The notes beneath the pieces were generated by a model. It ran no database searches. It saw nothing but the letters and a program-made list of their open reading frames with translations, and had not been told where the DNA came from. Positions 5,341 to 20,091 of a stretch of DNA of 64,000 nucleotides are shown here, piece after piece. The number at the start of each line of letters is the position of its first letter. Position 1 is the first letter of the stretch. The position numbers and the translations under genes are program-made. Origin of the DNA: Candidatus Methanophagales archaeon. Its GTDB lineage: Archaea; Halobacteriota; Syntropharchaeia; Alkanophagales; Methanospirareceae. Location of the stretch: positions 10,704-74,703 of the forward strand of contig QENH01000201.1 of assembly GCA_003336485.1 (NCBI GenBank), written 5' to 3'.

Positions 5341-5390
5341 GGTAAGGTAAGGTAAGGTAAGGTAAGGTAAGGTAAGGTAAGGTAAGGTAA
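5341..5390. repeat. (GGTAA)x10 pentanucleotide microsatellite
   Basis: Ten perfect tandem GGTAA units read directly from the sequence. Confidence 0.95.
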
Positions 5391-5562
5391 GCGCGTTAAA
5401 AATCAATATTAAAGCGGGAATCGAATGCAAAGGGTGTAAGTATATCAGAGTATGTATCACCGAAGGTTTATCGCTTATTCAATCAATTGGTGGGTTTATA
5501 TCAAAAGATCAAAGTGTTAATGCCTTGAATGAGACACGGGTAGCTTTAAAGGGTGAATTATA

Positions 5563-5636
5563 TGGGCCCGATGCGATTCGAACGCATGACCTTCGCCTCG
5601 TAAAGGCGACGTCATAACCAACTAGACCACGGGCCC
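5563..5636 (-). tRNA. tRNA-Val (anticodon TAC)
   Basis: Reverse complement folds as a cloverleaf: acceptor GGGCCCG/CGGGCCC, anticodon stem UCGCC/GGCGA with loop UUUACGA (anticodon UAC), T-arm GGUC-AUGCGUUCGAAUCGCAU, discriminator A; no encoded CCA. Confidence 0.85.
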
Positions 5637-5717
5637 ACTATAAAGATAATTTATATCTTTAGATACAATAAGTTATTAGACTAAAAAGGTACATTGCGTC
5701 AGAGGAAGTAAAGAAAA

Positions 5718-6083
5718 ATGCGAGGAGGATTTAGAAAAGGAATGGGCTTGAGTCCAAAGAAATTGAACCAGATGATGAAACAAATGGGCATAAGTGTAGA
5801 AGAGATGAGCGATGTAGAGGAAGTAGTGATAAAGACCGCAGATGCAGAACTCGTATTTGCAGAGCCCGAAGTTTCTGTTACGGATGCTCAGGGATCGAAG
5901 GTGTATCAAATAACAGGTACACCCGTAGAACGCCCCAAGGCAGAATCTGAACTTGAAGTTTCGCAAGAGGATGTGGAAATTGTAATGGAAAAGGCTGGGT
6001 GCAGTGAAACAGAAGCGAAAGCGGCATTAGCCGAAACAAAAGGTGATTTGGCAGAGGCAATATCCAAGCTTTATGTGGAATGA
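5718..6083 (+). CDS. nac: nascent polypeptide-associated complex protein (archaeal NAC alpha, C-terminal UBA)
   Basis: 121 aa; MKQMGI...VEEV.IK NAC domain and C-terminal UBA-like AISKL; typical archaeal NAC size. Confidence 0.8.
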   Translation: MRGGFRKGMGLSPKKLNQMMKQMGISVEEMSDVEEVVIKTADAELVFAEPEVSVTDAQGSKVYQITGTPVERPKAESELEVSQEDVEIVMEKAGCSETEAKAALAETKGDLAEAISKLYVE

Positions 6084-6916
6084 ACTTAATTCAACCGAAA
6101 CGCATTGGAATGGCATGTCGGGGCGAACCCAAAACGGTATCCGTATTAAAAGAGTTGATAGAGTGCGTTGAAGACAGTGTAGAAGTCATACTTGACGAAG
6201 AGATAGCGTATAAGCTCAAAAGGCAGGGTATGAGAATAGAAGATATGGATGTGGATTTCTTAATCAGTGTTGGTGGTGACGGTACAATATTAAGGGCACT
6301 GCATTCTTTGAAAAGCCCCATACCTGTGCTGGGTATAAATATGGGTGCTATCGGATTTTTAGCCGCGGTGCAACCAGAAGACTGTATTTCGGTAGTTACA
6401 GAGCTATTAGACGGGTTTGAGGTCGAGCGTAGGGAACGGCTTTCGGTGGAACTAAAAGGTAAGAAGGAGAGGATACCGTATGCAATGAATGAAGCAGTGG
6501 TGATCACATCAAAACCGGGGAAGATGCTACATTTTGCTATCTTTTTGGATGATGATGAGTTAGAGCAGTTAAGAGCAGACGGTGTCATTTTTGCAACTCC
6601 CACAGGGAGCACTGCGTATGCAATGTCAGCCGGCGGACCCATTGTCGATCCAAAGGTAAATGCAACCTTAATAGTGCCAATAGCACCTTTCAAACTTTCC
6701 GCAAGGCCTACGGTCGTCGATATACAGAGAAAGATCGGCTTAGACCTTTTTGGTGTGAAAGATGCGAAATTAGTCATTGATGGACAGTTCTACATGGGAA
6801 TAGAGAAAGAAGACGGGATTAGCATTACGCGCGGTGAACCCGCATTCTTTGTTAAAGTGGCAGATACTCATTTCTTAAAATTCGGTGATAAATTACGAAG
6901 CGAGGGCGGGAAATGA
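6080..6916 (+). CDS. nadK: NAD kinase
   Basis: 278 aa; GGDGT motif, NEAVV, DGVIFATPTGSTAYAMSAGGPIVDP; start overlaps the nac stop (ATGA). Confidence 0.85.
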   Translation: MNLIQPKRIGMACRGEPKTVSVLKELIECVEDSVEVILDEEIAYKLKRQGMRIEDMDVDFLISVGGDGTILRALHSLKSPIPVLGINMGAIGFLAAVQPEDCISVVTELLDGFEVERRERLSVELKGKKERIPYAMNEAVVITSKPGKMLHFAIFLDDDELEQLRADGVIFATPTGSTAYAMSAGGPIVDPKVNATLIVPIAPFKLSARPTVVDIQRKIGLDLFGVKDAKLVIDGQFYMGIEKEDGISITRGEPAFFVKVADTHFLKFGDKLRSEGGK

Positions 6917-6975
6917 AAAGATTAATATGCCTGGAAATTGAAGTTTTTTTGTGGGTGTAAAGAGGAGGACTGAAA

Positions 6976-7266
6976 ATGATGAAAATGTCATCGCTGATGT
7001 TGAGCAATAAGAAAGTTGTGGACACGGAAGGTGGGGAAGTGGGAGTGTTACATGACATAGTAGCAGATGCTGGAACTGGAATACTAACAGAACTCGTAGT
7101 TAAACCGGCTGCTGAGCTCGACACAAGCAAGTTCAAAACGGATGACGGTTATCTCTTTATACCTTTTGATACAGTTACAGCAATAAAAGATATCATAGTA
7201 GTGGATATTAAGCAGATACGAGAACATGTACGGGCTGCAACAGCTCAAAAATCAGTGGCTTTTTGA
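6976..7266 (+). CDS. PRC-barrel domain protein
   Basis: 96 aa; pattern of small archaeal PRC-barrel proteins (VVDTEGGEVGVLHDIV...VVD). Confidence 0.5.
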   Translation: MMKMSSLMLSNKKVVDTEGGEVGVLHDIVADAGTGILTELVVKPAAELDTSKFKTDDGYLFIPFDTVTAIKDIIVVDIKQIREHVRAATAQKSVAF

Positions 7267-7285
7267 GCTTGAGCTTTTGCTACTA

Positions 7286-7402
7286 CGGGCGTGACGGGAT
7301 TTGAACCCGTGATTTGCAGCTTTCTCCCCTTTTTGATCGAACTTAATTATGCGACAAATTTGTTAGGAGGCTGCCGCCATATCCTAGCTAGGCCACACGC
7401 CC
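7286..7402 (-). tRNA. tRNA-Arg (anticodon CCT inferred) with ~41-nt intron at the canonical 37/38 position
   Basis: Reverse complement has acceptor GGGCGUG/CACGCCC plus discriminator G. Anticodon stem is GCAGC/GCUGC around loop CUCCUA + intron + A. T-arm is ACGGG-UUCAAAU-CCCGU. Mature length ~76 nt. Confidence 0.7.
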
Positions 7403-7525
7403 AACGGAAATTTTCAGTCTTAGAAGAAAGAAAAGTTTATTAAAGAAAAACCTTTTCTCTTTTTGTTGATGTCTTTCACTCAAAGTATGAATGAATGTGA
7501 TCAGCATTTCTTACTATATATAGAT

Positions 7526-8908
7526 ATGACGAAGTTGCAAAAAAACCTGGAAAAGGCAGCGGAGATAATAAAAAGGCATGAATATGCAAGAGTGATTTCA
7601 CATTACGATGCCGATGGGATAACCTCTGTGGCGATTATTTGTACGGCCCTGCTTCGAAGTGGGATACAGTTCCATGCGACTATCGTAAATAAGGTAGAAC
7701 GGAGACTCATAGAAGACTTAAGTGAGGGGCTCGTTATATTCTGTGATATGGGCACTGCGCACATGGATTTGATATTAGAGTGTCTTAAAGAGAAGGATGT
7801 GGTAATTATAGACCATCATGTACCATTAATATCAGTCCCAATTCCGACATCGCCGACATCTTCCCTTGTCCTCGTAAATCCGTATTGCACTAGCGAGGAG
7901 AAAGAGGAAATAGGCGGGGATATTTGCGCCGCAGGTATCTCTTATCTTGTGGCAAGGTGCTTATCGACAGACGGAAATAATAACATAGATCTTGCAGGAC
8001 TCGCGGTAGCGGGCTCATTAGGCGATAAGGTAGCGCTAGATAGCGGAATAAACAAATTGATTTTGGACGAGGGTATAAATGAGGGCGTTATCTCTGTTAA
8101 AAACGGGCTGAAGCTCGGCGACGGTAAGATACGTGATTTGATCATTTTCGCGACCGACCCCTATACCCCACTCGCAGGAAGGGATGAGTGGGTGGATGCC
8201 TTTTTGGATAAGATGAGTATAGACGGCGATAAGGACATAAACGATTTAGATGCAGGCGTGGAAAGTCAATTAGCCGATGCTTTGTTAGCGATATCGAAAG
8301 AATCGGCAACAGGCATCAGTGAGGACGCTCTGGTGGGAGACACGTACATTTTAAATTCCGAGGTGGTGAAAAACAGCCTGGATTTTATGCGATTGGTGGA
8401 TGCTTGTGGTCGATTTGGAAAATCGGGCATTGGGATAGGGTTGTGCCTACGAGAGGCGAAACAGATAGAAGATGCGACTTCGTTACACATGCAGTTTCAA
8501 AGCAAGCTTGTTTCCGAGTTGGGAAGAATAGAAAGTGAGGCAGATGTACTAAAAGAGCTACAGAATATGTTCTTTTTCTACGTGCATGAGACGGGCGTAA
8601 CAGGCGTTTCATCTGGAATTCTTGCGGAATATCTATACACTGAGAAGCCGGTAATTGCGTTAAACAAGAAAGACGGGGCAGAAGACGGTAAAAAGTCGGA
8701 CACGAAAATATCCGCACGATGCAATAAGAAACATGTTACAAAAGAGGGCAGGATAGACCTGTCTAAGGCGATGGAGCAAGCATCAAAAGAAGTAGGTGGC
8801 TTTGGTGGTGGACATCCGGTTGCTGCTGGTGCGTCCATACCAAACGGGACCGAGGAGGAGTTCATCGCTGCTCTCGATCGTATTTTAGGCGAGCAAAACG
8901 CTAGCTGA
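7526..8908 (+). CDS. DHH-family phosphoesterase, archaeal RecJ/GAN-like
   Basis: DHH motifs ISHYDADGITS and IIDHH; DHHA1-like C-terminus with GGGH. ORF track starts at 7463, but the conserved N-terminus begins at the ATG at 7526. Confidence 0.7.
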   Translation: MTKLQKNLEKAAEIIKRHEYARVISHYDADGITSVAIICTALLRSGIQFHATIVNKVERRLIEDLSEGLVIFCDMGTAHMDLILECLKEKDVVIIDHHVPLISVPIPTSPTSSLVLVNPYCTSEEKEEIGGDICAAGISYLVARCLSTDGNNNIDLAGLAVAGSLGDKVALDSGINKLILDEGINEGVISVKNGLKLGDGKIRDLIIFATDPYTPLAGRDEWVDAFLDKMSIDGDKDINDLDAGVESQLADALLAISKESATGISEDALVGDTYILNSEVVKNSLDFMRLVDACGRFGKSGIGIGLCLREAKQIEDATSLHMQFQSKLVSELGRIESEADVLKELQNMFFFYVHETGVTGVSSGILAEYLYTEKPVIALNKKDGAEDGKKSDTKISARCNKKHVTKEGRIDLSKAMEQASKEVGGFGGGHPVAAGASIPNGTEEEFIAALDRILGEQNAS

Positions 8909-9108
8909 TTTTAGATGCTTTGTAATTTCCATTGTATATATAAAGTATAGTTTCTGCCACAGAGTTTTATACACCGATAGCACCGAGTATTTTCCCTCCG
9001 TGTCCTCTGTGGTCCCGGTGGCTAATTAATCATTTTTGACTTATTCTTGGCTCGCACACGTTCTTCATTTTGCAATCAAAAGTCCGAAATCCATAAGAAT
9101 TTTGGCTA

Positions 9109-9366
9109 TTACACTCTTATCAGATACTTCGCCTTCACGATGCGGTATGCGATGAATAATGTGAGAAAGAAACCGAGGAATGTGAAAAAAGTAGAAAGGA
9201 CAAAGCCTAATGTAGTTCCCCCTAACATATTACCAAGCACAAAACCACCGAATAAACCGAGTATAGTAAAACAGGAAATAAAAATAGCGTATGGAAGGGC
9301 ATGAAAAATAACATCGCCCTTTTGCCCCTCTTTCATCTTTACACTATTTTGCATGTGCCTTAGCAA
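9109..9366 (-). CDS. small 2-TM membrane protein (hypothetical)
   Basis: 85 aa with two hydrophobic helices; co-oriented and adjacent to the proteolipid gene. The overlapping + ORF 9047-9304 is basic and low-complexity. Confidence 0.3.
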   Translation of the reverse strand: MLRHMQNSVKMKEGQKGDVIFHALPYAIFISCFTILGLFGGFVLGNMLGGTTLGFVLSTFFTFLGFFLTLFIAYRIVKAKYLIRV

Positions 9367-9386
9367 GCACTATACGCCATAAAATA

Positions 9387-9716
9387 TTATATCTTCGTCC
9401 AGAGCATGAAAGCAATCAAAAGCCCATATATAGCAATCGCTTCTGCAAGAGCAACGAAAATCAGAACACGCCCGAACGATTCAGGCTTCTCCGCCGTAGC
9501 TCCAGCCGCTGCTACACCCGTAGACGATATTGCGATACCTGCGGCAAGTGCTGATCCCGCCATTGCAATACCCGCCGCTATTGCTATCCATCCGCTATCT
9601 GTAACTCCTGACACTACTTCTTGTTGCGCAGACGCAACACCTACTCCTGTGAGTAGCAAGAGCAAGCAAAGCGTAAATGCAAATCCGTATTTCGAGTTCA
9701 TATCTTTCCTTTTCAC
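9387..9716 (-). CDS. c-ring proteolipid family protein (A/V-type ATPase subunit K/c-like)
   Basis: 109 aa; Gly/Ala-rich helical hairpin GIAMAGSALAAGIAISSTGVAAAGA and a second helix with a conserved carboxylate (ALAEAIAIYGLL). It stands alone, not in an ATPase operon. Confidence 0.5.
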   Translation of the reverse strand: MKRKDMNSKYGFAFTLCLLLLLTGVGVASAQQEVVSGVTDSGWIAIAAGIAMAGSALAAGIAISSTGVAAAGATAEKPESFGRVLIFVALAEAIAIYGLLIAFMLWTKI

Positions 9717-10029
9717 CTTTTTCTTTTTACTTATTTATTTATTTCTATTGAAAGGTGATACGATTTCTAATATATAAAAGTTTCTGGTTTTAGCACGAAG
9801 AATAATCGAACTTCTTGTATATTTCACGGTTAAAATAAAAAATGGGGTGGAAACCATTCGCAGGGGCGTTTATTTCTGCCATTGTTGCGTAAACATAGCG
9901 GTGGCGATAGATCTTAAAGCGGAGTTTGCAGAAGGATTACCCAGGGTATAGTAATCGAGATCTTCATCTGTGGAGGGATGATAATTGAGTGCAGTTGCCG
10001 TCCAACAGACCAAGATCGTAAGAAAAATC

Positions 10030-11511
10030 TTAGAGGGGTGAATAGAGCTCCGAACCCAAAAAGAAGTGAAAATTGAGGACACAAACATCCGCGTGTAAAG
10101 GCGTTCCATATGCTGCGGTTGCGATGAAGCAAGGTGAAGGTTCATACAAGGGGAATTTATAGATATAGTAACAGTCATTAACACTCTCTTTGTATTGATT
10201 TATCCGCTTATTCTGGTCAAAAGAGCAATCATCTATGTTATTTCGGTTATCCCGTGACGTGGTGAAGACCGCCCAATCTGATTCGCCAATCAGGTATTTT
10301 GTGCCACCCTTGTCAATATTAAAGTAGCAGGCCATTTTTATTTTTGGGTATTTCTTGATCGTATTGTACGTTTCTGCTAGCCATGCACCTTTTTTGGTGT
10401 TGTTGCTTATCCCTTCCTCAACACAAACGTCATTTATGCCGGTGCTGCTTTCGTACCTTATATCATCGAGATAGATCGTGCAGCCGAGAGGATTATTAGC
10501 TACACTTGTGCCCCAATAGAACCCACAAACGACATGACACATATTCTTGTCTGTTACATTAAGGGTATACTTTTGCCATGTACTTGTTAAAATTATATCA
10601 CCGGTCGAAACGTCAATATTACCTGCTGTAAATTTCGCCTTTTCTCCACCTTTTTCGCCTCTTGCCCAGAAGGTTAGAATATCTGCACCTGTCAAATTAT
10701 AGCCACCCTCCTGCCAGCGAATGCCAGCCCAGCCATTGCCTTGCGAACTGTTTGCCGAATAATGTATCTTTATAGACGAATTCCCGCATGCGATTCCCAA
10801 ATGAGGGTTTGTCGTGCAGCTATCGTCGAACGTTATATCACCCCAATCGCCTATCCAGCCGGAGGGGCTAAAATGGTTAGTTGGTGAATCCTTGTTGGTG
10901 TAAACGTTGAATTCCTTTATAGGTTTACTATCAACGACACTGGAAGATGCAAATTCAGTTATCGCATACGGCTTTTGTGATATGTTTGCATGTATGTCAA
11001 ATCGGTCCAGCATGGTCTTGAAAATATCGTTAAAGTTTCGCCAATTGTCCCAATCCGCACACGGAACTGACTGCCCAACGTTATAGCCGTCAATAGCCAC
11101 CCAATCCACATACTCATCGCCCGGATAATATTCTTCTGCTTTATATCCCTCAAATGGCACGTCATAATTGTTCACACACCACACCCACTGCAAGACATCG
11201 GAAGTTAAATTTTTTGATTTGAATATGTTATGAACATGTATCCAAGCAGCCGTATACGATGCCGGCGTTTTGTTGCTCCAGGGATATGCTTCGTCATGCA
11301 GATTCATCTCGTGTGCGAACCTGATAAAGAGCTGTTTCCTTGTTCCTGTTTCACCATTTACCGTCCAGTTTTCCTGCGTCCAATTATATAATTCTTGCGC
11401 ATAGCCCTCGAAATATGTGTCCAATGACCCGTTATTTATTACGTCAAGAATATCGCCCGCGCTCCAGGGCTCCCATGTTAGAAGCGGTGTGTTGCCATTA
11501 TGCTTGGTCAT
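10030..11511 (-). CDS. secreted glycoside hydrolase family 26-like protein with C-terminal lectin-like domain
   Basis: 493 aa; GH26-like blocks WEPW, IRFAHEMN and YAITEF (candidate acid/base and nucleophile Glu); Trp/Tyr-rich beta-rich C-terminal half; ends with CFIATAAYGTPL. Confidence 0.55.
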   Translation of the reverse strand: MTKHNGNTPLLTWEPWSAGDILDVINNGSLDTYFEGYAQELYNWTQENWTVNGETGTRKQLFIRFAHEMNLHDEAYPWSNKTPASYTAAWIHVHNIFKSKNLTSDVLQWVWCVNNYDVPFEGYKAEEYYPGDEYVDWVAIDGYNVGQSVPCADWDNWRNFNDIFKTMLDRFDIHANISQKPYAITEFASSSVVDSKPIKEFNVYTNKDSPTNHFSPSGWIGDWGDITFDDSCTTNPHLGIACGNSSIKIHYSANSSQGNGWAGIRWQEGGYNLTGADILTFWARGEKGGEKAKFTAGNIDVSTGDIILTSTWQKYTLNVTDKNMCHVVCGFYWGTSVANNPLGCTIYLDDIRYESSTGINDVCVEEGISNNTKKGAWLAETYNTIKKYPKIKMACYFNIDKGGTKYLIGESDWAVFTTSRDNRNNIDDCSFDQNKRINQYKESVNDCYYIYKFPLYEPSPCFIATAAYGTPLHADVCVLNFHFFLGSELYSPL

Positions 11512-11536
11512 GTGCCTGTGCCAACGCTTTTATCTC

Positions 11537-12655
11537 CTAAAATTCAAGTGTAATACTTTGAGCACATTTGGGATACGTTGACATATAGTCCCATTTTACG
11601 GGGACATCATATGCTACCGTCACACTTCCAAGCTCGCTTACGAGGAATGTTAAAGTTTCACTATATTCTGTACCTCCACCATTTGTTTCAAGCCATAACA
11701 TAACCTCCTTTGGCTCATCCACCAAAATAGAGAAATTATAGGATTGTCCTTGATTCAAGTCTTCCCAATCGCCATGAAAAGCGATACGGGAATCTGGAAG
11801 GAACTTACCTCCGTCAAATTCAGGTGGGCAAGAATAAATGATAAAATCCCCCCAAATATTTAGTCCAACTGAAACAGAAGGTTTTCTTGGTATAATCGAG
11901 ACATTTAACAGGGTGTAGCCATCCTCATCCATTGTGTTCACAACCATATCAGCCCATGGCTTATCCTGGACGGTTTTATCAGGTAGATCAAAACCGATGC
12001 ATGAGGCAATCACGTTATCTAAATGTTTAACATCCCAAACCCCCACGTACCACTCTATATCAAAGTTATAGAGTTGGTTGTGGTCAATATAAGTCTCCGA
12101 TGTATATAACCGCTCTGTTTTATCAATCCATACACCTGTTTTCGGCACAGGAGGCGGTAATGGTGGCAACTCGCCGATTGGATCCTCAAATGGATAATGG
12201 TCTATGCCATTACTACCAATATAATAAGGTTGTGAGCCGTTGCTTGGATTGCCTACGCATTTGTGGTCGCCCCAGTAGTTCCCGCCGATAATTAGACCGT
12301 TATCCCATGTGTTATTGTTACTATCAGCATATGGTTGTTCATCATTGTATATCAAATTGTTGTTATAAATTTTGTTATTGGATGAATTCTTCAATTTTAT
12401 TCCGCTCTCTGTGTTCAAGCAGACAGTGTTGTTAATGAGCGTGTTGTTGAAGGAGTGCTCTATGTCCATCCCATCATCAGAGTTGTTAAACACATTATTG
12501 TTCGCAATAGTGTTGTACTCGGAATCATCTAAGTCTATGCCATCATCCACATACCATGTTGCAGCCGACACAGCTCCAATAAGCAGCGGCACCAGCACCA
12601 ACATCAGCCCCACACATCTCAACACTCGCAGCCGATTATCGTTTTGATTTGACAT
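11537..12655 (-). CDS. secreted parallel beta-helix (PbH1) repeat protein
   Basis: 372 aa; signal peptide (LMLVLVPLLIGAVSAA), then Asn-rich beta-helix rungs (NNTLINNTVCLNTESGIKLKNSSNNKIYNNN). 25 bp downstream of the GH26-like gene on the same strand. Confidence 0.6.
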   Translation of the reverse strand: MSNQNDNRLRVLRCVGLMLVLVPLLIGAVSAATWYVDDGIDLDDSEYNTIANNNVFNNSDDGMDIEHSFNNTLINNTVCLNTESGIKLKNSSNNKIYNNNLIYNDEQPYADSNNNTWDNGLIIGGNYWGDHKCVGNPSNGSQPYYIGSNGIDHYPFEDPIGELPPLPPPVPKTGVWIDKTERLYTSETYIDHNQLYNFDIEWYVGVWDVKHLDNVIASCIGFDLPDKTVQDKPWADMVVNTMDEDGYTLLNVSIIPRKPSVSVGLNIWGDFIIYSCPPEFDGGKFLPDSRIAFHGDWEDLNQGQSYNFSILVDEPKEVMLWLETNGGGTEYSETLTFLVSELGSVTVAYDVPVKWDYMSTYPKCAQSITLEF

Positions 12656-12979
12656 TTTCTTTTGCTTCTACATCACCTTCTATATAGAGTCTTTCTTTTG
12701 AAAAAAAAACTTTTCTTGCTAAGAAAAGGTTTTTTAATGGCTTTCCGACTTCCAACCAAATAAGCTACCACCTGCCAAGAACCCAGCAAAGCAATTGCAG
12801 ACAATGCTTCAAATGCGGCCATTTTCTTCTTCTTATCCTCGCAATTGCACCTTTTTAGGCATCCGTATCACCCCAAAAAGCAACAAATCATTTGTTTTGT
12901 TTATAGCTTATAACGTTTTCGATTTGTTTTCTTTGCTAAATATAAGGCCAAGATTTTTTGTATATGCTATTGTATCCTA

Positions 12980-13468
12980 TTAGGATAAAGTCACAATCCC
13001 TACTTCTATCTTATCCGCAATAGTTATAATACCATAGGTTTTATACTTCGCCGGGAAGGCACCAGTTGCACTGCCGGGATTGAAGAATATCGTATCGTCT
13101 TTTCTTTTAAGTTCCTGTTTATGCGAATGCCCGTATATGATCAAGTCCAAATCGTCGCCCAATTTAGTCTTTACCCGTTCTGCTAACCCAAATGGGCTCC
13201 CGCCCTCTGCAGGGTGTGTAACACCAATTCTAAACCCTTCGACTACAAATATAGCTTCTGCCGGGAGTTTCACCCTTATTTCTTCCGGGTCCATATTACC
13301 ATGAACACCTTTAAAATCGCTCAGTGCCAGCAATTGGTCAAGAAAACTTATGCTTGTATAGTCACCCGCATGAATTATCAGATCAACACTATTCAGATCG
13401 TCCAAAATACGTTCGTGCAAATCCGTCAGATCTTTTGCATGTGTATCTGAGAGCACCACTATTTTCAT
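12980..13468 (-). CDS. metallophosphoesterase, YfcE/MJ0936 family
   Basis: 162 aa; MKIVVLSDTHA, GD, GNMD, GHSH metal-binding motifs. Confidence 0.85.
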   Translation of the reverse strand: MKIVVLSDTHAKDLTDLHERILDDLNSVDLIIHAGDYTSISFLDQLLALSDFKGVHGNMDPEEIRVKLPAEAIFVVEGFRIGVTHPAEGGSPFGLAERVKTKLGDDLDLIIYGHSHKQELKRKDDTIFFNPGSATGAFPAKYKTYGIITIADKIEVGIVTLS

Positions 13469-13557
13469 TTCTCTATTAATCTTATTTTAGTATGATCTTA
13501 AAAGTTATTTACGCTATTCCAATGGCTCCACCGCATCACAACTCAATGAGAATACCA

Positions 13558-13645
13558 CCTTAAGCGGATAACCACACATGCCGGATTAGTTGGACGTGCC
13601 TTCGGAGCGAAAGGCATGCTACTCGCATCCCGAAATAATGGCATA
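13558..13645 (+). repeat. orphan ~88-bp copy of an internal 5' segment of aTrm56 (direct repeat of 14600-14690)
   Basis: taagcggataaccacacatgccggattagttggacgtgcc...ggcatagaga is ~93% identical to codons ~15-43 of the aTrm56 gene 1 kb downstream. The 40 bp upstream of it looks like a diverged aTrm56 5' end (ATG at 13522). Confidence 0.8.
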
Positions 13646-14452
13646 GAGAGCAATCATATGATGTCCCTGGTAAATAGGCAACACCTTTTTATCTGTTTCA
13701 AAAAATGAGTAAACCGCCGTTTGTGCGCATCTAACAGAATACTCTACCGTAAACACACAATCATTTGCTACTTCGGCAAATTGCCCTAAAAATGCAAAAT
13801 TGGTTGATCCTTCCGGTATAACATCGGGACGGTCTCCTAATTCTCTTGGCATGAATAGACTATCAACAAATGGCATCATAACCGGAATGCAATTTGCTTT
13901 GCCTGCATCCAGTATTGGCTGCATCTTATCTGTGATTTTTAGATGATAGAATAGCTCCTCTAATATCTCTTCTCCGGAACATTCAGACATCTTTTTCTTA
14001 ACATGATTTCCTACTCTATCAGGATAGAGCCCGTAACGCCAGGGTTGCCAAAGGCCGGATCTTTCTTTGCAATTTTTTCCCAAAGAGTCCATGAGCCTGA
14101 TGAAGCCTTGTCTTTTAGTTTCGGTGGTGCGGTCATCGAGCCGAGGTCAGAGCTTTCCACGATAGAGCCGTTTGTAATGAATACGTAATTCTCTCAAAAT
14201 CAATATCAAGTACCTGAGTGTCCATATCAAAATGCACACCTCGCTTTGTTAACCAATTTTCAATAGGGATCACCTCGGAATCGTATTGATTGTATTTTTT
14301 AGCAACCTAGCCTGGGCATTTGAGACGAACTTCTTGTTAAATGCGAAACTTTCTTCTGTTATCGATACATTAGGGTCATCTAAGGAAGGTATGTTAGATA
14401 ATAAATCCCAGTAGCATACGTAATGCATTTCATGCATTCTGCCGCCACGTAC
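13619..14452 (-). pseudogene. C-terminal remnant of an oleate hydratase / MCRA-family gene (frameshifted, N-terminal FAD domain missing)
   Basis: ORF 13619-14092 contains STNFAFLGQFAEVANDCVFTVEYSVRCAQTAVY, recalled from memory as the conserved C-terminal block of oleate hydratases. Upstream homologous pieces (EVIPIENWLTKRGVHFDMDTQVLDIDFERI; ITEESFAFNKKFVSNAQ) lie in other frames. Confidence 0.5.
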
Positions 14453-14556
14453 GACATAACATTTCTTTCAAAAAGTTTTAAAAGCTTTACCAAAGAAATA
14501 TTAAACCAAAAGGCATATATTTTTTCAGGGAATGGGAGATACAGAATTTTAACCTC

Positions 14557-15105
14557 ATGGAGATCGTAATACTGAGATTGGGACACCGCCTGGAGCGGGA
14601 TAAGCGGATAACCACACATGTCGGATTAGTTGGACGTGCATTAGGAGCGAAAGGCATGCTACTCGCATCCAGAGATAAGGGCATAGAGACCAGTATAAAT
14701 GAAGTCACGCAGAGGTGGGGTGGTGATTTCTTTGTACAAACAGGAGTGAAATGGAGCGACGAGCTAAAGAGATGGAAGCAAGAAGGCGGGAAAGTGTGTC
14801 ATCTGACGATGTACGGTGAGAACATTCTTGACGTGATCGATGAACTAAGGGCAGAAGCGAATAATGATAAAGCACGTATCATGGTCGTTGTGGGCGCGGA
14901 AAAAGTACCATATATTGTTTACGATGCTGCAGATTGGAACATAGCGGTATCAAATCAGCCGCATTCAGAAGTAGCTGCTTTGGCGCTCTTTCTCGATTAT
15001 TTACAGCATGGCAAAGAGCTAAAAACTAAATTCGAGCATGCCGAGATGGAAATAGTACCGAAGAGGCGAGGCAAAGAGGTAATCAAGAAGAATAATGGTA
15101 CATGA
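14557..15105 (+). CDS. tRNA (cytidine56-2'-O)-methyltransferase aTrm56 (SPOUT)
   Basis: 182 aa; MEIVILRLGHRLERDKRITTHVGLVGRALGAKGMLL N-terminus is characteristic of archaeal aTrm56. Confidence 0.8.
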   Translation: MEIVILRLGHRLERDKRITTHVGLVGRALGAKGMLLASRDKGIETSINEVTQRWGGDFFVQTGVKWSDELKRWKQEGGKVCHLTMYGENILDVIDELRAEANNDKARIMVVVGAEKVPYIVYDAADWNIAVSNQPHSEVAALALFLDYLQHGKELKTKFEHAEMEIVPKRRGKEVIKKNNGT

Positions 15106-15111
15106 AAAGAT

Positions 15112-15408
15112 CTAACCCACTTCCACGCCTTCGCCCGCTTTACCCGGCTTCCTCGCTTCCGGCAACCGCTTCATCTCCGGTAGCACCTTCACCCTCAGTA
15201 TGTTCGTGGAACGGACATGATAGACCGGATCACCGGTCATCGGATCGTAGTCCTCCGTGCGAATAATACTGCTCACTACCGTTTTAAACTTCAATACCGT
15301 GCCGTCTTCCAACGTATATTCATTCCAATCCTCCTTTATCGTCTCAAAGTCTACGTCCATAGCCCCTAACTCCCGCCCATTTGGTAAACGAACTTTCAAT
15401 TTATCCAC
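15112..15408 (-). CDS. hypothetical small protein
   Basis: 98-aa ORF, no motif recognised. Confidence 0.3.
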   Translation of the reverse strand: MDKLKVRLPNGRELGAMDVDFETIKEDWNEYTLEDGTVLKFKTVVSSIIRTEDYDPMTGDPVYHVRSTNILRVKVLPEMKRLPEARKPGKAGEGVEVG

Positions 15409-15504
15409 CTTTTCTCTCCCTTTTGTAAATGCCTGATTATATATATTTGCTCTTTATGAATATAAGCGTCCCATCAATCTTTTTTAGTTTAGTTTAGTTG
15501 GATA

Positions 15505-16536
15505 TTATACTTTCTTGAGTACCGTGATGTACCGGTTTAAACTTTTATGTACACGGTACACGTACGTTTCAAGGACACGAAAAGAATGTCTGAGAGAACG
15601 CGAATAAGGGAAATTCGATACGACAACCGCTTTCCCGCCTGGTTTAAGCAAACGATGTATTTCCGCTAATGCATCCGGGAATAAGCGTTCTAATGACGGT
15701 CTAAAGCCCGCCTGGGCTATTAAAGAGGATCGCCCATAAGGCATGTCTGTTGCAATCGCATCAATGCAATTATCCCTTAATGCGATCTTAGCAGCATCGC
15801 CTACAATTAGAGCTCCCGTAAGTCCATAAAAGTTCAAATTTTCCGCTGTTCCTCGCACCATCTGCTCCTGCACATCTAGTCCCACTACCAGCGCCCCTAT
15901 CATGCCCGCTTCTAATAATAGCCCACCGGTGCCGCAGAACGGGTCAAGAAAAAGCTCGTTCTCGTTTATGCCACTGAGATTAACCAGAGCACGCGCAACT
16001 TTTGGTAGTATGACACCGGGCGAGAAGAAAGGTCTGAACTGAGGTTTCCTTGCACCATATCGCTTCTTATCCGTTGAATGTAATAGCAAACAGAAAAAGC
16101 ATGTTTGTTCTGTTAACAGCAGCACAAAGGTGTTCGATGGATCAGATAGATTTACGTTATAACCCTTTCCTTTTATGAGTGCTCCCACTTGCGCTATTAG
16201 TGCTTGCTTCTCCGGATAAGAGCTGTTTTTCGGCACACGAACAGCGAATGTGCTACCTTTTTCCATGCACTTGTATACATCTGTGTTTTTCACCATCGCC
16301 AATATCGCGTCCTCTTTCGGCTCACTCATGCCGTTCACTTCGTATATCCGGTGCGTCATCCCTAACCGATTAGCTAGAACCGCGAGTGTTTCCGGTCTGA
16401 TTTGTGCATCAATCACCAGTATACCTTTTAGGAACATTATCGTATCGTAAACGATACATAACGCATTTAAACACGCTAAAACCTCGGCTTTCGGCAGTGT
16501 GTCATGTTCGCCTGTGAGTTCAAAAGCAAGTAGCAT
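15505..16536 (-). CDS. tRNA (guanine10-N2)-dimethyltransferase, THUMP + methyltransferase (archaeal Trm11/Trm-G10)
   Basis: 343 aa; N-terminal THUMP-like region, motif I DPFCGTGG, catalytic motif DMPYG. Confidence 0.75.
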   Translation of the reverse strand: MLLAFELTGEHDTLPKAEVLACLNALCIVYDTIMFLKGILVIDAQIRPETLAVLANRLGMTHRIYEVNGMSEPKEDAILAMVKNTDVYKCMEKGSTFAVRVPKNSSYPEKQALIAQVGALIKGKGYNVNLSDPSNTFVLLLTEQTCFFCLLLHSTDKKRYGARKPQFRPFFSPGVILPKVARALVNLSGINENELFLDPFCGTGGLLLEAGMIGALVVGLDVQEQMVRGTAENLNFYGLTGALIVGDAAKIALRDNCIDAIATDMPYGRSSLIAQAGFRPSLERLFPDALAEIHRLLKPGGKAVVVSNFPYSRSLRHSFRVLETYVYRVHKSLNRYITVLKKV

Positions 16537-16859
16537 TTTCAGTCTTTTCGTATTTATATATATATGTAGTGAAACTCACAAATATTAAGTTACCCGAACT
16601 GTATCCTTTTTGGGTACACTATTTACGGAGAGTTCCCTAGCAAAGCTAAAAACCCACGAGATTTTACAAGATTTTGAGGGTTTATAATGGATAAAAGAGC
16701 CAATAAAGCACTTAAGCCTGATCCATATTACTATTTTCTCGTGTAAATCTGTGTAATCTTGTGGTCTATTTACCAAAAGAAAACTATCTTGGAATATACG
16801 TATAGATATATAAACAAAATTTTAGGTCATATAGGGATAGATAGAGAGGGGAAGGAAAA

Positions 16860-17759
16860 ATGGTGATAGAAATCGAAGATCTTAGACATGGGACAGAGCT
16901 TTTGAAGAATGGTTTCGCATCCTTACAAAAGGGGGGTGTGATAATGGACGTAACAAATGCAGATCAGGCTAAAATCGCAGAGGAGGCAGGCGCTATTGCA
17001 GTTATGGCGTTGCATGCTGTCCCGGCAGATATAAGAAAGGCAGGCGGTGTAGCGCGAATGGCTGACCCTGTAGTTATCTCCGAAATCGTTGATACCGTTA
17101 CGATACCGGTGATGGCGAAATGCCGTATAGGTCATTTTGTAGAGGCGGAGATACTAGAAGCGTTGGGCGTTGATATGATTGATGAATCCGAAGTCCTAAC
17201 ACCGGTGGACACGCATCACGTGGACAAGAGAAGGTTTACCGTGCCTTTCGTTTGCGGAGCTCGCAGTTTAGGTGAAGCATTGAGGCGGATAGAGGAAGGG
17301 GCGGCGATGGTGAGGACAAAAGGCGAAGCAGGTACGGGAGATGTCAAGGAAGCTGTTCGACACATGAAATTGATTATGGGCGAGATAAGATCGCTAAAAG
17401 GTAAAGATGACGAGGAGTTAAAAGATGTCGCGAAGGAGTTGCAAGTATCTATAGAGACAGTGCAAGAGACAGCGAAATTGCAGCGGTTACCGGTGGTTAA
17501 TTTCGCCGCGGGCGGTGTAGCAACACCTGCAGATGCCGCACTTATGATGCAACTCGGAGCAGACGGTGTTTTTGTCGGCTCGGGCATATTCAAATCGAGC
17601 GTTCCGGAAAAGATGGCTTCGGCAGTTGTGGATGCTGTTAACAGCTATGATGATCCAAAACGACTGGCGGCAATTTCTAAGGGGTTGGGATCACCAATGA
17701 AAGGTATAGAAGTGAGTACGTTGGCAGAAGAGGAGATGCTGCAAGTGCGTGGCTGGTAA
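16860..17759 (+). CDS. pdxS: pyridoxal 5'-phosphate synthase subunit PdxS
   Basis: 299 aa; [47 protein letters not shown] and other PdxS blocks. Confidence 0.9.
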
Positions 17760-17833
17760 CACGTCTACCCAAAACAAAATTAAAATAATTGCAAAAGTCA
17801 AAATAAACTTGTACAATTACTCTTAGTTAGGGC

Positions 17834-18304
<471 letters not shown>

Positions 18305-18321
18305 TTAATACTATTTATTTG

Positions 18322-18708
18322 TCAGTCCACACAAGCCAAAGCCCTAAATGGGCATACGTTCACGCACACTTCACACCGTATACATTTATCCTCTTCCAAC
18401 TCTATCTGCCACGATGGATTGAACTTAAACACTCCGGTAGGACAGATAGAAATGCAAGCACCGCAATGGATACATCTCTCTTCATCCCACGCAATTAGTT
18501 TCATTAATTTCCGTACTTCAACGCCCTTTTCCCTGAAATGTTCTGCAACACTATTCACTTTATCGCTCGGTACGTCAACAATGAGCTCACCACTCACCGC
18601 ATCCACGTTCGCCTTATCTATGTTTATTTTCGCTCCTGTCTCGAGTATTACTTCCGCAGTACGCGGCGTTTTGTGTCCGGGTCGGGGGAACCGTAATAAT
18701 AGCTTCAT
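18322..18708 (-). CDS. 2x[4Fe-4S] ferredoxin-domain protein
   Basis: 128 aa; two CxxCxxCxxxCP motifs (CIHCGACISICP, CIRCEVCVNVCP) after an N-terminal alpha/beta domain. Confidence 0.65.
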   Translation of the reverse strand: MKLLLRFPRPGHKTPRTAEVILETGAKINIDKANVDAVSGELIVDVPSDKVNSVAEHFREKGVEVRKLMKLIAWDEERCIHCGACISICPTGVFKFNPSWQIELEEDKCIRCEVCVNVCPFRALACVD

Positions 18709-18812
18709 TTTCGTCTCGATATATCGATCTATCTATTCATTTATTTTCTTTCTAAGAAAAGGTTTTACATAAAGGTATATTATTTCTTTAATTGTAGAAC
18801 AGCGAGTAGAGC

Positions 18813-19745
18813 ATGATAGTACGGATTCGAGATTTTGTGATAACGAAGCAAAATTGGATCTTCTCTGTTGTCTGTTATGACTTAGGCGAAGAGGAAGTGA
18901 AATGCCTCTTACGATATGTTCCAGACGACAGAGGCGAAAGAGTCGCGGAGCGTGGCAGATACCGGAAATTAGACTTTGAGGAAGCATATGCGTTCTTGGA
19001 CAGACATTGCCCAGAATATGTAAAAGGTGGCATGCAAGTGGTTCCAAAAGCGGATATACTAGAAATCCTGCGGCCCGAGGATGAGCTCCCGTTAATCGCC
19101 GAGCGAGAAGAGCAGGCCCAAACTATTTTTCAGCTTCTTGGAATGCGTATCCCGAGAGACCGGATCGGGATTACCGGCTCCTACTTATGTGGTCTTAACA
19201 GCGCTAATTCAGACCTCGATTTCGTCCTTTATGGTCTGCCGAACTTCAACCGAGCGAGAGAGGTAATAGCAGCAGCAGAGGAAGAAGGCATACTCGTAGA
19301 GATAAATGATGCCGTGTGGCGACGGATATACAATAAAAGGCAGCCGGAATTGAGTTACAATTGTTTTGTCGCACAGGAACAGAGGAAGAAGAATAGGGGT
19401 GCAATTGGGAACACATACCTGGATATTTTATACACGCGAGACCGAGAAGAGATAATGCAGTTGGATATGACGAATTATGAACTAGGCGAAAGGGAAGGTT
19501 ATGCAACGATAACAGCGGAAGTAAAAGACGCCTCTTTCTCTTTTGATAATCCCGCGATATACGTGATTGAACATCCAGAGATAAGCAAGGTTCTTTCTTT
19601 TACGCATACGTATGCCGGGCAAGCGTTAGCAGGCGAAACGATAGAAGCTTGTGGCGTAATAGAGCGCACAAAGCATGAGTTGAGATTGGTCGTGGGTACG
19701 ACAAGAGATGCGAAGGGCGAGTGGATAAGGTCGCTCTCGCTTTGA
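18813..19745 (+). CDS. Pol-beta superfamily nucleotidyltransferase-domain protein
   Basis: 310 aa; minimal NTase motif GSYLCGLNSANSDLDFVLYG (GS-x10-DhDh); C-terminal domain unassigned. Confidence 0.55.
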   Translation: MIVRIRDFVITKQNWIFSVVCYDLGEEEVKCLLRYVPDDRGERVAERGRYRKLDFEEAYAFLDRHCPEYVKGGMQVVPKADILEILRPEDELPLIAEREEQAQTIFQLLGMRIPRDRIGITGSYLCGLNSANSDLDFVLYGLPNFNRAREVIAAAEEEGILVEINDAVWRRIYNKRQPELSYNCFVAQEQRKKNRGAIGNTYLDILYTRDREEIMQLDMTNYELGEREGYATITAEVKDASFSFDNPAIYVIEHPEISKVLSFTHTYAGQALAGETIEACGVIERTKHELRLVVGTTRDAKGEWIRSLSL

Positions 19746-19872
19746 AATGATCTTTGGAAAGGTTGCAGGATGCAAGATGCAGGTTTGACTTGCAGCGTTG
19801 CAATTTCTCGTGAATTTGTGTTCTAATTAAATAAGTACAAAAAAAGTTTTTGGAAAGGAAAGGAAAAGGGTC

Positions 19873-20091
19873 ATGGAACTTAAAGTGAAGATACTTGCAG
19901 ATAAAGAGGAAGAGAGAATATTGGAAGTCTCGAATGATGATACATACGAGGATGTATTAGAGAAACTGGGAATAAATCCGGTGGAGGTAGTTGTGCTTCG
20001 TAATAGTAAGCCCGTGCCGGAAGATGAAAAACCTCTTGAGGATATAAATAATGGTGCGGTAACGATTATCAGAATTGTCTCCGGGGGGTGA
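19873..20091 (+). CDS. ubiquitin-like small archaeal modifier protein (MoaD/ThiS beta-grasp, C-terminal Gly-Gly)
   Basis: 72 aa ending ...IIRIVSGG. Confidence 0.7.
   Translation: MELKVKILADKEEERILEVSNDDTYEDVLEKLGINPVEVVVLRNSKPVPEDEKPLEDINNGAVTIIRIVSGG

What the first reader, a model, noticed from the sequence alone, without database searches (positions are those of the whole stretch)
13558..14690. 88-bp direct repeats of an internal aTrm56 segment flanking a ~1-kb insert that carries a decayed oleate-hydratase (MCRA) gene remnant: eroded integration scar
Codons ~15-43 of aTrm56 occur twice, ~93% identical. One copy is in the intact gene and one lies 1 kb upstream, where it is preceded by a diverged aTrm56-like 5' end (ATG at 13522). 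Between them is a frameshifted C-terminal fragment of an oleate hydratase-family gene, a bacterial-type enzyme unexpected in a methanogen. The geometry fits site-specific integration into the 5' part of aTrm56 by an element that supplied a replacement 5' end (attL/attR = the 88-bp repeats), followed by deletion of most of the element.
Basis: partly seen in the sequence, partly recalled or inferred. Interest (0 to 1): 0.6.

Follow-up and report, generated by a model that had tools for sequence, protein, structure and literature searches.

The report
Decaying gene remnants beside aTrm56
The repeat is real, but it is the last scrap of an old, dead partial copy of a tRNA-methyltransferase gene in an ANME-1 archaeon, sitting beside a crumbling oleate-hydratase gene; its ends are ordinary deletion scars, not the attachment sites of a mobile element.

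Summary
**Observation confirmed.** Window 13561-13652 and 14601-14692 are 92-nt direct repeats, 85/92 identical, 1040 nt apart, and occur only twice in the window. The second copy is nt 45-136 of an intact aTrm56 gene. An oleate-hydratase (MCRA) pseudogene lies between them on the minus strand.

**Interpretation mostly not supported.**
- A related ANME-1 MAG (L013) carries the undecayed locus: Metallophos | SNF2 helicase (1046 aa) | ψ-aTrm56 | intact MCRA (539 aa) | orf69 | aTrm56.
- The window equals this locus minus about 4.7 kb, removed at about six junctions, most showing 4-5 nt of microhomology.
- The "aTrm56-like 5' end with ATG 13522" is the last ~17 codons of the SNF2 gene on the opposite strand.
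- Both ends of the upstream repeat are deletion junctions. In relatives the dead copy spans aTrm56 nt 1-290, and all copies share one internal deletion, so it arose once.
- I found no integrase, no tRNA gene and no viral match. None of the other archaeal loci I fetched (about 80) has a second aTrm56 fragment.

An old event probably gave aTrm56 a new upstream region and 5' end, displacing the old one. How that happened is unresolved.

Ordinary gene decay; low interest.

The parts
12980..13468 (-). Intact Metallophos_2 phosphoesterase gene; conserved left neighbour of the locus in relatives L004-L007, L013 and L096
   Evidence: Pfam PF12850 E = 2e-35. 92% nt identity to L004 and L013.
13514..13565 (-). 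Remnant of an SNF2 helicase gene: stop codon plus the last ~17 codons.
   Evidence: 87% nt identity to the 3' end of the 1046-aa SNF2 ORF of L013, 3725-6865 minus strand. That ORF matches Pfam SNF2-rel_dom, DUF3670 and Helicase_C.
13560..13565 (.). Deletion junction J1: SNF2 tail fused to ψ-aTrm56 at gene nt 45. Microhomology TAAGC (TTAAGC versus ATAAGC). Shared with L096.
   Evidence: Parental sequences compared. L096 has the same junction.
13561..13652 (+). ψ-aTrm56 block A, the upstream copy of the repeat. It corresponds to aTrm56 nt 45-136.
   Evidence: Orthologous to the ψ copies in L004 (5459-5642), L013 (6957-7044) and L096.
13653..13664 (+). ψ-aTrm56 block B, about 12 nt matching aTrm56 nt 245-256. 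It follows an internal ψ deletion (nt ~137-244) that is shared by all ψ copies. It ends in junction J2 (microhomology GATGT), which is specific to the window.
   Evidence: Window 13609-13664 aligns with L013 6957-7012. Shared deletion shown in the alignment. J2 parental sequences.
13658..14464 (-). MCRA / oleate hydratase pseudogene. Four blocks (13658-14042, 14035-14194, 14194-14301, 14294-14464) are joined at junctions J3-J5. It lacks the first 198 nt and the last 45 nt of the 1620-nt gene.
   Evidence: Pfam PF06100 matches on four ORF fragments. 91-94% nt identity, block by block, to the intact 539-aa MCRA gene of L013, 7268-8887.
14465..14556 (+). Upstream and promoter region of the live aTrm56, an AT-rich TTTTAAAAGC box region. 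It is conserved in all members of the subclade, including those without ψ or MCRA. Junction J6 lies at its left edge and is shared with L096.
14557..15105 (+). Intact aTrm56 gene, tRNA C56 2'-O-methyltransferase, 182 aa. The downstream repeat copy is 14601-14692.
   Evidence: Pfam PF01994 E = 8.8e-50 over the full profile. 88-94% identical full-length homologues in ANME-1 / Methanophagales.

Best explanation
The genome is an ANME-1 (Methanophagales) archaeon. The upstream 92-nt copy is the last surviving piece of ψ-aTrm56, a non-functional partial copy of the aTrm56 5' region. This partial copy arose once in the ancestor of this ANME-1 subclade.

**Ancestral locus.** It is best preserved in MAG contig L013: Metallophos(-) | SNF2 helicase(-) | ψ-aTrm56(+, gene nt 1-290 with an internal deletion) | ~200-nt spacer | MCRA / oleate hydratase(-) | orf69(-) | new upstream region | aTrm56(+).

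**Decay in this strain (shown).** About 4.7 kb of that 5.7-kb stretch has been lost at about six junctions, most carrying 4-5 nt of microhomology. This points to replication slippage or microhomology-mediated end joining. What remains is a 52-nt SNF2 tail, 104 nt of ψ-aTrm56 and 807 nt of MCRA in four blocks. Both ends of the 'repeat' are therefore deletion scars. The repeat has no present function.

**Origin of ψ (inferred, not shown).** An incoming DNA carried a copy of the aTrm56 5' region behind a different upstream sequence. It recombined with the resident gene, either by a Campbell-type single crossover of a circle or by replacement with linear DNA. This displaced the old 5' end, which became ψ. 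MCRA itself was acquired from bacteria.
For: **Undecayed version exists**
- L013 holds the intact SNF2 (1046 aa) and MCRA (539 aa) genes in the same order and orientation.
- The window aligns to L013 block by block at 87-94% identity.

**Junctions are deletion scars**
- Microhomology is seen at J1 (TAAGC), J2 (GATGT), J3 (CCAG), J5 (ATTTT) and J6 (TTTC). J4 has 1-2 nt at most.
- The deletion pattern is nested. L096, the nearest relative at 97.5% in the flank, shares J1 and J6. It keeps the MCRA 3' end and spacer that the window lost at J2, and it has its own internal MCRA deletions.
- Other decay states occur: L004-L009 have lost MCRA completely and keep ψ from its ATG; L217 has lost the ψ coding part; L014 and L015 have lost ψ and MCRA.

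**ψ arose once**
- All four ψ copies share the same internal deletion (aTrm56 nt ~137-244) and shared substitutions.
- ψ occurs in three sub-branches of the flank tree.

**ψ is longer than the window repeat**
- In L004 and L013 it extends from the ATG to nt ~290.

**Different upstream regions**
- The sequence upstream of ψ differs from that of the live gene. It resembles the upstream of more distant ANME-1 aTrm56 genes only weakly.

**MCRA relatives**
- ANME-type homologues are 84-96% identical. The next best are ~72% identical, and those that carry a name are bacterial.

**Assembly support**
- Independent assemblies L001 and L096 support the junctions.
Against: - The origin step is inferred only. 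No donor element or donor genome with MCRA next to aTrm56 was found.
- The similarity between the ψ upstream and 'ancestral-type' upstream regions is weak: best 17/30 nt, in low-complexity sequence, shuffle p ~0.0015 before multiple testing.
- ψ and MCRA may not have arrived together. L004 has ψ and the spacer but no trace of MCRA, and carries a piece of a palindromic repeat in its place. The orf69-MCRA cassette also occurs in other genomic contexts.
- The claim that L014, L015, L016 and L002 lost ψ rests on parsimony over a short NJ tree. Recombination among strains could distort that tree.
- Microhomologies of 4-5 nt are short, and one junction (J4) has almost none.
Confidence: 0.8

Rival explanations
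1. A site-specific integrative element inserted into the 5' part of aTrm56 and supplied a new 5' end. The 88-92-bp repeats are attL and attR, and most of the element, including its integrase, was later deleted.
For: - The gene order ψ(5' part) - cargo - new upstream region - complete gene is what 5'-end-replacing islands produce, as described for dusA islands (PMC4482086).
- The live gene's upstream differs from ψ's upstream.
- The cargo, MCRA, is of bacterial type.
- The gap between SNF2 and aTrm56 holds different content in different strains: MCRA, an AAA_15/AAA_21 ATPase, or a ~93-nt repeat.
Against: - The repeat ends in the window are deletion junctions, not element ends.
- The original duplication is at least 290 nt, against 19-28 bp for dusA att sites.
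- I found no integrase in the genes scanned near the locus or in the undecayed L013 insert.
- There is no tRNA gene nearby.
- No viral contig carries aTrm56 or this MCRA, and plasmid and phage records match only the MCRA coding part.
- No second aTrm56 fragment occurs in the other archaeal loci fetched, so the target is not used recurrently.
- The 'replacement-side' ATG at 13522 is an SNF2 tail.
Confidence: 0.08
2. A purely local duplication. A tandem or segmental duplication of the aTrm56 5' region arose without any foreign DNA. The MCRA cassette inserted later and independently between the two copies.
For: - In its coding part ψ resembles the resident subclade's aTrm56 more than distant lineages do.
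- L004 has ψ and the spacer without any MCRA trace.
- The orf69-MCRA cassette is found in at least two other contexts, so it moves on its own.
Against: - A tandem duplication should give both copies the same upstream sequence, yet the two upstream regions are unrelated.
- The ~200-nt spacer after ψ nt 290 matched nothing else I compared it with: no other fetched locus, plasmid or phage record.
- Parsimony on the flank tree places MCRA and ψ together in two of the three ψ-bearing branches.
Confidence: 0.15
3. An assembly artefact or chimeric MAG contig. The repeat would reflect mis-joined reads from two strains.
For: - The source is a metagenome-assembled contig.
- Several strain variants of this locus coexist in related samples.
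Against: - L001, from run SRR6058406, is 100% identical across Metallophos, the SNF2 tail, ψ and the first part of MCRA.
- L096, from another run, has the same order and shares junctions J1 and J6 at 89-97% identity.
- The two copies are only 92% identical, so they would not collapse or mis-join in assembly.
Confidence: 0.02
4. A member of a dispersed repeat family such as a MITE or a regulatory motif that happens to overlap aTrm56.
For: A different short palindromic repeat family does exist in these genomes' intergenic regions.
Against: - Only two copies exist in 64 kb.
- The sequence is coding sequence of aTrm56, conserved as such across ANME-1.
- In the related loci it occurs only in aTrm56 itself and in ψ.
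Confidence: 0.01

Closest known systems
Pseudogene and gene-remnant decay by microhomology-mediated deletions (the deletional bias of prokaryotic genomes)
   Same: - An intact orthologue exists in a close relative.
- The remnant has frameshifts and several internal deletions.
- Most junctions carry 4-5 nt of microhomology.
- Different strains show nested and independent deletion states.
- There is no sign of function.
   Different: Three adjacent genes (SNF2, ψ-aTrm56 and MCRA) are being erased together. A set of related metagenome contigs captures several intermediate states.
dusA-specific genomic islands (Farrugia et al. 2015, PMC4482086): islands that integrate into the 5' end of a tRNA-modification gene and supply a replacement 5' end
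   Same: - The target is the 5' part of a tRNA-modification enzyme gene.
- The order is displaced old 5' end, then cargo, then new upstream region and complete gene.
- The cargo is variable or foreign.
   Different: - dusA islands always carry a tyrosine integrase, are flanked by 19-28-bp att repeats, recur in over 200 genomes and excise as circles.
- Here I found no integrase, and the duplication is at least 290 nt.
- The event happened once in one subclade.
- Excision cannot be tested with these tools.
Campbell-type single-crossover integration of a circular DNA carrying a 5' fragment of a host gene, as with suicide-plasmid insertion duplications
   Same: It predicts exactly the observed topology: a truncated 5' copy, then the circle's cargo, then a complete gene behind the circle's upstream sequence. 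It also predicts a duplication as long as the shared fragment, here ~290 nt plus.
   Different: No circular element, replication gene or donor has been identified. This is a mechanistic analogy only.
Oleate hydratase / MCRA family (PF06100)
   Same: The L013 orthologue is full-length (539 aa, profile positions 2-495, E = 1.7e-211). The window fragments match profile positions 61-109, 210-239, 276-315 and 386-495.
   Different: - The window copy lacks the N-terminal part, has three internal deletions and changes frame, so it cannot encode the enzyme.
- The public record nonetheless names its 157-aa ORF 'oleate hydratase' (P0121).

Membership tests
Integrated mobile element bounded by att direct repeats (dusA-island type or archaeal recombinase elements) | An integrase or recombinase gene inside or next to the insert | tested here: not met
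   Pfam scans of most ORFs of at least ~100 aa within about 8 kb of the locus (window ~5700-18300) gave only housekeeping, secreted-protein, SNF2 or MCRA families. The undecayed L013 insert holds only SNF2, MCRA and a 69-aa ORF with no family match.
Integrated mobile element bounded by att direct repeats (dusA-island type or archaeal recombinase elements) | The direct repeats mark the exact ends of the inserted DNA | tested here: not met
   The left end of the upstream copy is a fusion to an SNF2 tail (J1). The right end is an internal ψ deletion followed by J2. In L004 and L013 the duplicated segment spans aTrm56 nt 1-290.
Integrated mobile element bounded by att direct repeats (dusA-island type or archaeal recombinase elements) | The same target is used recurrently in other genomes, or free or viral copies carry attP | tested here: not met
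   Self-comparison of each of 95 fetched loci found secondary aTrm56 fragments only in this subclade. Viral-contig scans with aTrm56 and with MCRA found nothing.
Integrated mobile element bounded by att direct repeats (dusA-island type or archaeal recombinase elements) | An empty site in a relative equals one repeat copy with unchanged flanks | tested here: inconclusive
   L014 and L015 have SNF2 facing aTrm56 with no ψ and no MCRA. However, the gap holds a ~93-nt repeat and the same new-type upstream region, and their SNF2 is itself decayed. They look like further deletion products rather than pristine sites.
Integrated mobile element bounded by att direct repeats (dusA-island type or archaeal recombinase elements) | The live gene's 5' end and upstream region are supplied by the insert | tested here: inconclusive
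   The upstream regions of the live gene and of ψ are unrelated. The ψ upstream is weakly like that of distant ANME-1 lineages, best 17/30 nt. This is suggestive only.
Integrated mobile element bounded by att direct repeats (dusA-island type or archaeal recombinase elements) | Excision as a circle with restoration of the target | not testable with these tools
   This needs PCR or read-level data from the source sample.
Decaying pseudogene cluster (deletional decay) | Intact orthologues in a close relative in the same position and orientation | tested here: met
   L013 has SNF2 (1046 aa) and MCRA (539 aa) intact between Metallophos and aTrm56.
Decaying pseudogene cluster (deletional decay) | Disrupted reading frames, truncations and internal deletions | tested here: met
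   Four MCRA blocks lie in different frames with both ends missing. SNF2 is reduced to 17 codons and ψ to 104 nt.
Decaying pseudogene cluster (deletional decay) | Independent and nested deletion states among related strains | tested here: met
   L096 shares J1 and J6 only. L004, L217, L014 and L015 each have different losses.
aTrm56 (PF01994) - the live gene 14557-15105 | A full-length match to the family profile and full-length close homologues | tested here: met
   PF01994 profile positions 1-119 of 119, E = 8.8e-50. Homologues 88-94% identical over 98-100% of the length.
Oleate hydratase / MCRA (PF06100) - the window copy | A complete domain including the N-terminal nucleotide-binding part | tested here: not met
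   Only profile positions 61-109, 210-239, 276-315 and 386-495 are present, in different frames. The first 198 nt of the gene are missing relative to L013.

The most novel reading that the evidence does not exclude
A small circular DNA without an integrase had captured the first ~290 nt of aTrm56. It carried a bacterial oleate-hydratase cassette and entered the ANME-1 chromosome by a single homologous crossover, giving aTrm56 a new upstream region. That would be a concrete route by which bacterial genes enter uncultured ANME-1 genomes. The same gap between SNF2 and aTrm56 would then act as a reusable landing pad, since an AAA_15/AAA_21 ATPase occupies it in another strain.
Probability: 0.15. 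Interest if true: 0.45.

Novelty: new member of a known kind. Interest (0 to 1): 0.22.

Why it matters
- **Annotation.** The 157-aa "oleate hydratase" in the public record is a pseudogene fragment, and its last codons are read through the dead aTrm56 piece.
- **A worked example of gene erasure.** The related contigs show, step by step, how an uncultured ANME-1 population erases an acquired bacterial gene and a large SNF2 helicase gene through short-homology deletions.
- **A variable spot.** The region upstream of aTrm56 is strain-variable. This is useful background for anyone studying gene flow or genome streamlining in ANME-1.
- **No new mechanism.** Nothing here points to a new biological mechanism.

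Tried and rejected
1. **Metagenome scan.** I searched for the ψ/spacer junction 18-mer GAYGTGATTGATGAAAGC. It returned 120 chance matches, and none was related to the locus.
2. **Viral contigs.** Scans with aTrm56 and with the L013 MCRA found nothing.
3. **Plasmid and phage collections.** A search with the L013 insert (6866-9310) matched only the MCRA coding part at ~70-77% identity, in haloarchaeal, Listeria and Leuconostoc records. Nothing matched ψ, the spacer or orf69.
4. **RNA genes.** No tRNA gene in window 9000-20000 and no Rfam hit in L013. A tRNA-type target or a structured RNA in the spacer is rejected.
5. **ATG at 13522 as a diverged aTrm56 start.** Rejected. The ATG is not conserved in L004, and the stretch is an SNF2 3' end on the other strand.
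6. **Base composition.** There is no GC anomaly over the MCRA remnant, so this gave no information.
7. **Promoter and terminator scan.** Nothing exceeded the shuffled controls, and the tool covers bacterial-type signals only.
8. **Direct repeats around the MCRA cassette in its other context (L093).** I found only one 23-nt pair, 19/23 identical and offset from the homology ends. I treated it as chance.
9. **Literature.** A search for ANME-1 plus oleate hydratase returned no paper.
10. **Exact-sequence look-up of the window's aTrm56.** The protein is not on record.
Full report
**1. The observation**

The repeat finder reports one direct-repeat family of 92 nt at 13561-13652 and 14601-14692. The copies are 92% identical and 1040 nt apart. 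BLAST of the region against the whole window finds only these two copies, at E = 3e-34, so this is not a dispersed repeat.

The downstream copy lies in an intact 182-aa gene, 14557-15105. That gene matches Pfam Trm56 over the full profile with E = 8.8e-50, and the repeat covers gene nt 45-136.

Minus-strand ORF fragments between the copies match Pfam MCRA (PF06100) at profile positions 61-109, 210-239, 276-315 and 386-495. Close aTrm56 homologues carry source names such as Methanophagales and ANME-1, so the organism is an ANME-1 archaeon.

A Logan assembly from another data source, L001, is 100% identical to window 11599-13928. The left half of the structure is therefore not an artefact of one assembly.

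**2. What relatives show**

I fetched aTrm56 loci of close relatives. The key one is L013, a Methanophagales MAG contig with 93% identical aTrm56. Its layout is:

| L013 coordinates | Strand | Feature |
|---|---|---|
| 2973-3461 | - | Metallophos |
| 3725-6865 | - | SNF2 helicase, 1046 aa (SNF2-rel_dom, DUF3670, Helicase_C) |
| 6957-7044 | + | ψ-aTrm56 fragment |
| 7045-7267 | . | spacer |
| 7268-8887 | - | intact MCRA, 539 aa (PF06100 E = 1.7e-211) |
| 8902-9111 | - | 69-aa ORF (orf69) |
| 9311-9859 | + | aTrm56 |

The window aligns to this locus in blocks at 87-94% identity:

| Window | L013 |
|---|---|
| 13510-13569 | 3721-3780 |
| 13609-13664 | 6957-7012 |
| 13658-14042 | 7313-7697 |
| 14035-14194 | 7904-8063 |
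| 14194-14301 | 8145-8252 |
| 14294-14464 | 8519-8689 |
| 14465 onward | 9199 onward |

L013 3464-9198 (5.7 kb) thus corresponds to window 13471-14464 (1.0 kb).

**3. The 'aTrm56-like 5' end' is an SNF2 tail**

Window 13514-13565 read on the minus strand gives ...LKVVFSLSCDAVEPLE followed by a stop codon. The C-terminus of the L013 SNF2 protein is ...QLKEVFSLSQDAVEPLD followed by a stop.

The plus-strand ATG at 13522 lies inside this tail. In L004 the same position reads TTTGG, so the ATG is not conserved.

**4. Both ends of the upstream copy are deletion junctions**

I compared each junction with the two parental L013 sequences.

| Junction | Window position | What is joined | Microhomology |
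|---|---|---|---|
| J1 | 13560-13565 | SNF2 tail (CCTTAAGC\|TGATC) to aTrm56 nt 45 (GGGATAAGC\|GGATAACC) | TAAGC |
| J2 | ~13653-13664 | ψ (ATCTGACGATGT\|ACGG) to the 3' part of MCRA (GGATCATGATGT\|CCCTGG) | GATGT |
| J3 | 14035-14042 | inside MCRA | CCAG |
| J4 | 14194 | inside MCRA | 1-2 nt |
| J5 | 14294-14301 | inside MCRA | ATTTT |
| J6 | ~14464/14465 | MCRA codon ~66 to the aTrm56 upstream region | TTTC |

The intergenic stretch between Metallophos and the SNF2 stop codon is also shorter in the window than in L013.

L096 is the closest relative, at 97.5% identity in the flanking region. It shares J1 and J6. It keeps the MCRA 3' end and spacer that the window lost at J2, and it has its own different internal MCRA deletions.

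Other strains show further states:
- L004-L009 keep only SNF2 fragments. They keep ψ from its ATG and have no MCRA at all.
- L217 keeps MCRA intact but has lost the ψ coding part.
- L014 and L015 have a fragmented SNF2 and neither ψ nor MCRA.
- L002 and L003 have intact SNF2 and, in place of ψ and MCRA, a 596-aa AAA_15/AAA_21 ATPase.

This is the pattern expected of ongoing, independent deletional decay.

**5. ψ-aTrm56 arose once and was longer**

An alignment of the four ψ copies with 17 live genes shows that all ψ copies share the same internal deletion. aTrm56 nt ~137-244 are missing, with the junction ...GCATAGAGNGCAAT|CTGACGATGT.... They also share substitutions.

In L004 ψ starts at the ATG. 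In L004 and L013 it runs to nt ~290 and then passes into a common spacer.

ψ is present in three sub-branches of a neighbour-joining tree built on the flank: (window, L096), L004 and L013. It is absent from the basal L010. The simplest reading is one origin in the subclade ancestor followed by several losses.

The 92% identity in the window is therefore the residual similarity of an old dead copy. It is not the signature of recent recombination at an att site.

**6. How ψ may have arisen (inference)**

All live genes of the subclade share about 145 nt of upstream sequence (...TTTCAAAAAGTTTTAAAAGC...TTTTAACCTC ATG). This includes the strains without ψ.

The sequence upstream of the ψ ATG in L004 (...TTTTGTGAAAAAAGGGAAGTTGC ATG) is unrelated to it. 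It resembles, weakly, the upstream of more distant ANME-1 aTrm56 genes such as ...AAAAAGAAAAAGTGTG ATG. The best match is 17/30 nt with a shuffle p of about 0.0015 before multiple testing, in low-complexity sequence.

The order is old-type upstream, ψ (5' 290 nt), spacer, MCRA(-), orf69(-), new upstream, complete gene. This is what a single crossover between the chromosome and a circular DNA carrying an aTrm56 5' fragment would give. Replacement by linear DNA would give the same order.

The mechanism is not established, and it is not certain that MCRA came in the same event:
- L004 has ψ and the spacer but no MCRA trace.
- The orf69-MCRA cassette (L013 7249-9106) is found at 92% identity in a different context, between a PHP gene and a DUF7309 gene, where it is frameshifted (L093-L095).
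- A more distant copy, 84% identical, lies next to ilvD (L218).

**7. Tests of the mobile-element reading**

- I found no integrase, transposase or other mobility family. The window genes scanned from about 5700 to 18300 are NAC, NAD kinase, DHH, ATP-synt_C, a GH26-like protein, a NosD-like protein, Metallophos, an UPF0020 methyltransferase, PdxS and lumazine synthase. The L013 insert also holds none.
- No tRNA gene was found nearby, and Rfam gave no hit in L013.
- Self-comparison of 95 fetched loci, including about 80 species-representative archaeal genomes, found secondary aTrm56 fragments only in this subclade.
- Viral contigs hold neither aTrm56 nor this MCRA.
- Plasmid and phage records match only the MCRA coding part.

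For comparison, the dusA islands are the best-known case of 5'-end replacement in a tRNA-modification gene. They always carry an integrase, have 19-28-bp att repeats, recur in over 200 genomes and excise as circles (PMC4482086). None of the features I could test is met here.

**8. MCRA origin**

Apart from two ANME-type proteins at 96% and 84% identity, the best full-length matches to the L013 MCRA are about 72% identical. Those that carry a name are bacterial: Thiomicrorhabdus, Porticoccus, Psychrilyobacter and other Gammaproteobacteria (fragment search).

Oleate hydratase genes are also annotated on haloarchaeal megaplasmids, so the family is not unknown in archaea. Acquisition from bacteria is likely for the ANME-1 gene. 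Base composition over the remnant is not distinctive.

**9. Verdict**

The repeat is real. It is a by-product of gene decay: a 104-nt relic of a dead partial aTrm56 copy, wedged between a 52-nt SNF2 tail and a four-block MCRA pseudogene.

The att-site interpretation is not supported. A single old 5'-end replacement event remains the most likely origin of the dead copy, by an unresolved mechanism.

Interest is low. The kind of feature is well known, and what is new is only this instance and the set of decay intermediates.

Noticed in passing
window 16741-16764; L013 11355-11491; L014 777-869; L015 1104-1196; L016 2955-3037; L004 4908-4930 and 5867-5900: A short palindromic repeat family occurs in intergenic regions of these ANME-1 genomes. 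Its motif is GTGTAAATCTGTGTAATCTTGTGG, and L013 has arms gacacagattaacgcagattaacacag / ctgtgtaaatcagtgtaatcagtgtc. A ~93-nt copy fills the gap upstream of aTrm56 in the strains that lack ψ and MCRA. It may be MITE-like. Only one copy within 3 mismatches is present in the window.
   Followed up: partly
L002 2231-4021 (also L003 277-2067): In two strains the gap between SNF2 and aTrm56 holds a 596-aa AAA_15/AAA_21 ATPase with a weak methyltransferase-like C-terminal part. It resembles PtuA, AriA and GajA-type defence ATPases in PADLOC. The spot upstream of aTrm56 is therefore strain-variable.
   Followed up: partly
L093 6301-8267 (also L094, L095); L218 244-1863: The orf69-MCRA cassette occurs in at least two other genomic contexts in ANME-like contigs: between PHP and DUF7309 genes, and next to ilvD. 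In L093-L095 it is broken into ORFs of 214, 231 and 88 aa, so oleate hydratase seems to be decaying independently in several lineages.
   Followed up: partly
window 13619-14092 (-): This 157-aa ORF is in the public record as 'oleate hydratase [Methanophagales archaeon]' (P0121). It is a pseudogene fragment spanning two deletion junctions, and its last ~12 codons are read through the antisense of ψ-aTrm56.
   Followed up: yes
window 9387-13468 versus L013 2496-3461 and L004 2838-4838: The content between the ATP-synt_C gene and Metallophos differs among strains. The window has two secreted-type genes (GH26-like 10030-11511 and NosD/beta-helix 11537-12655). L004 has two small unannotated genes, and L013 has none. 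This is a second variable spot next to the locus.
   Followed up: no
window 49090-49116 (-) versus 14481-14507 (+): A 27-nt stretch of the aTrm56 upstream region (ccaaagaaatattaaaccaaaaggcat) matches another intergenic site at 25/27; the shared core is agctttaccaaagaaata. It could be a shared promoter-type motif or chance.
   Followed up: no
L013 3725-6865; remnants at window 13514-13565, L004 4940-5346, L014 and L015: A large SNF2 helicase with a DUF3670 domain is intact in L013 and at least partly so in L002. It is fragmented or nearly gone in four other lineages. PADLOC gives strong but generic matches to ZorD and DpdE-type SNF2 models. Its function is unknown and it is apparently dispensable.
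   Followed up: partly
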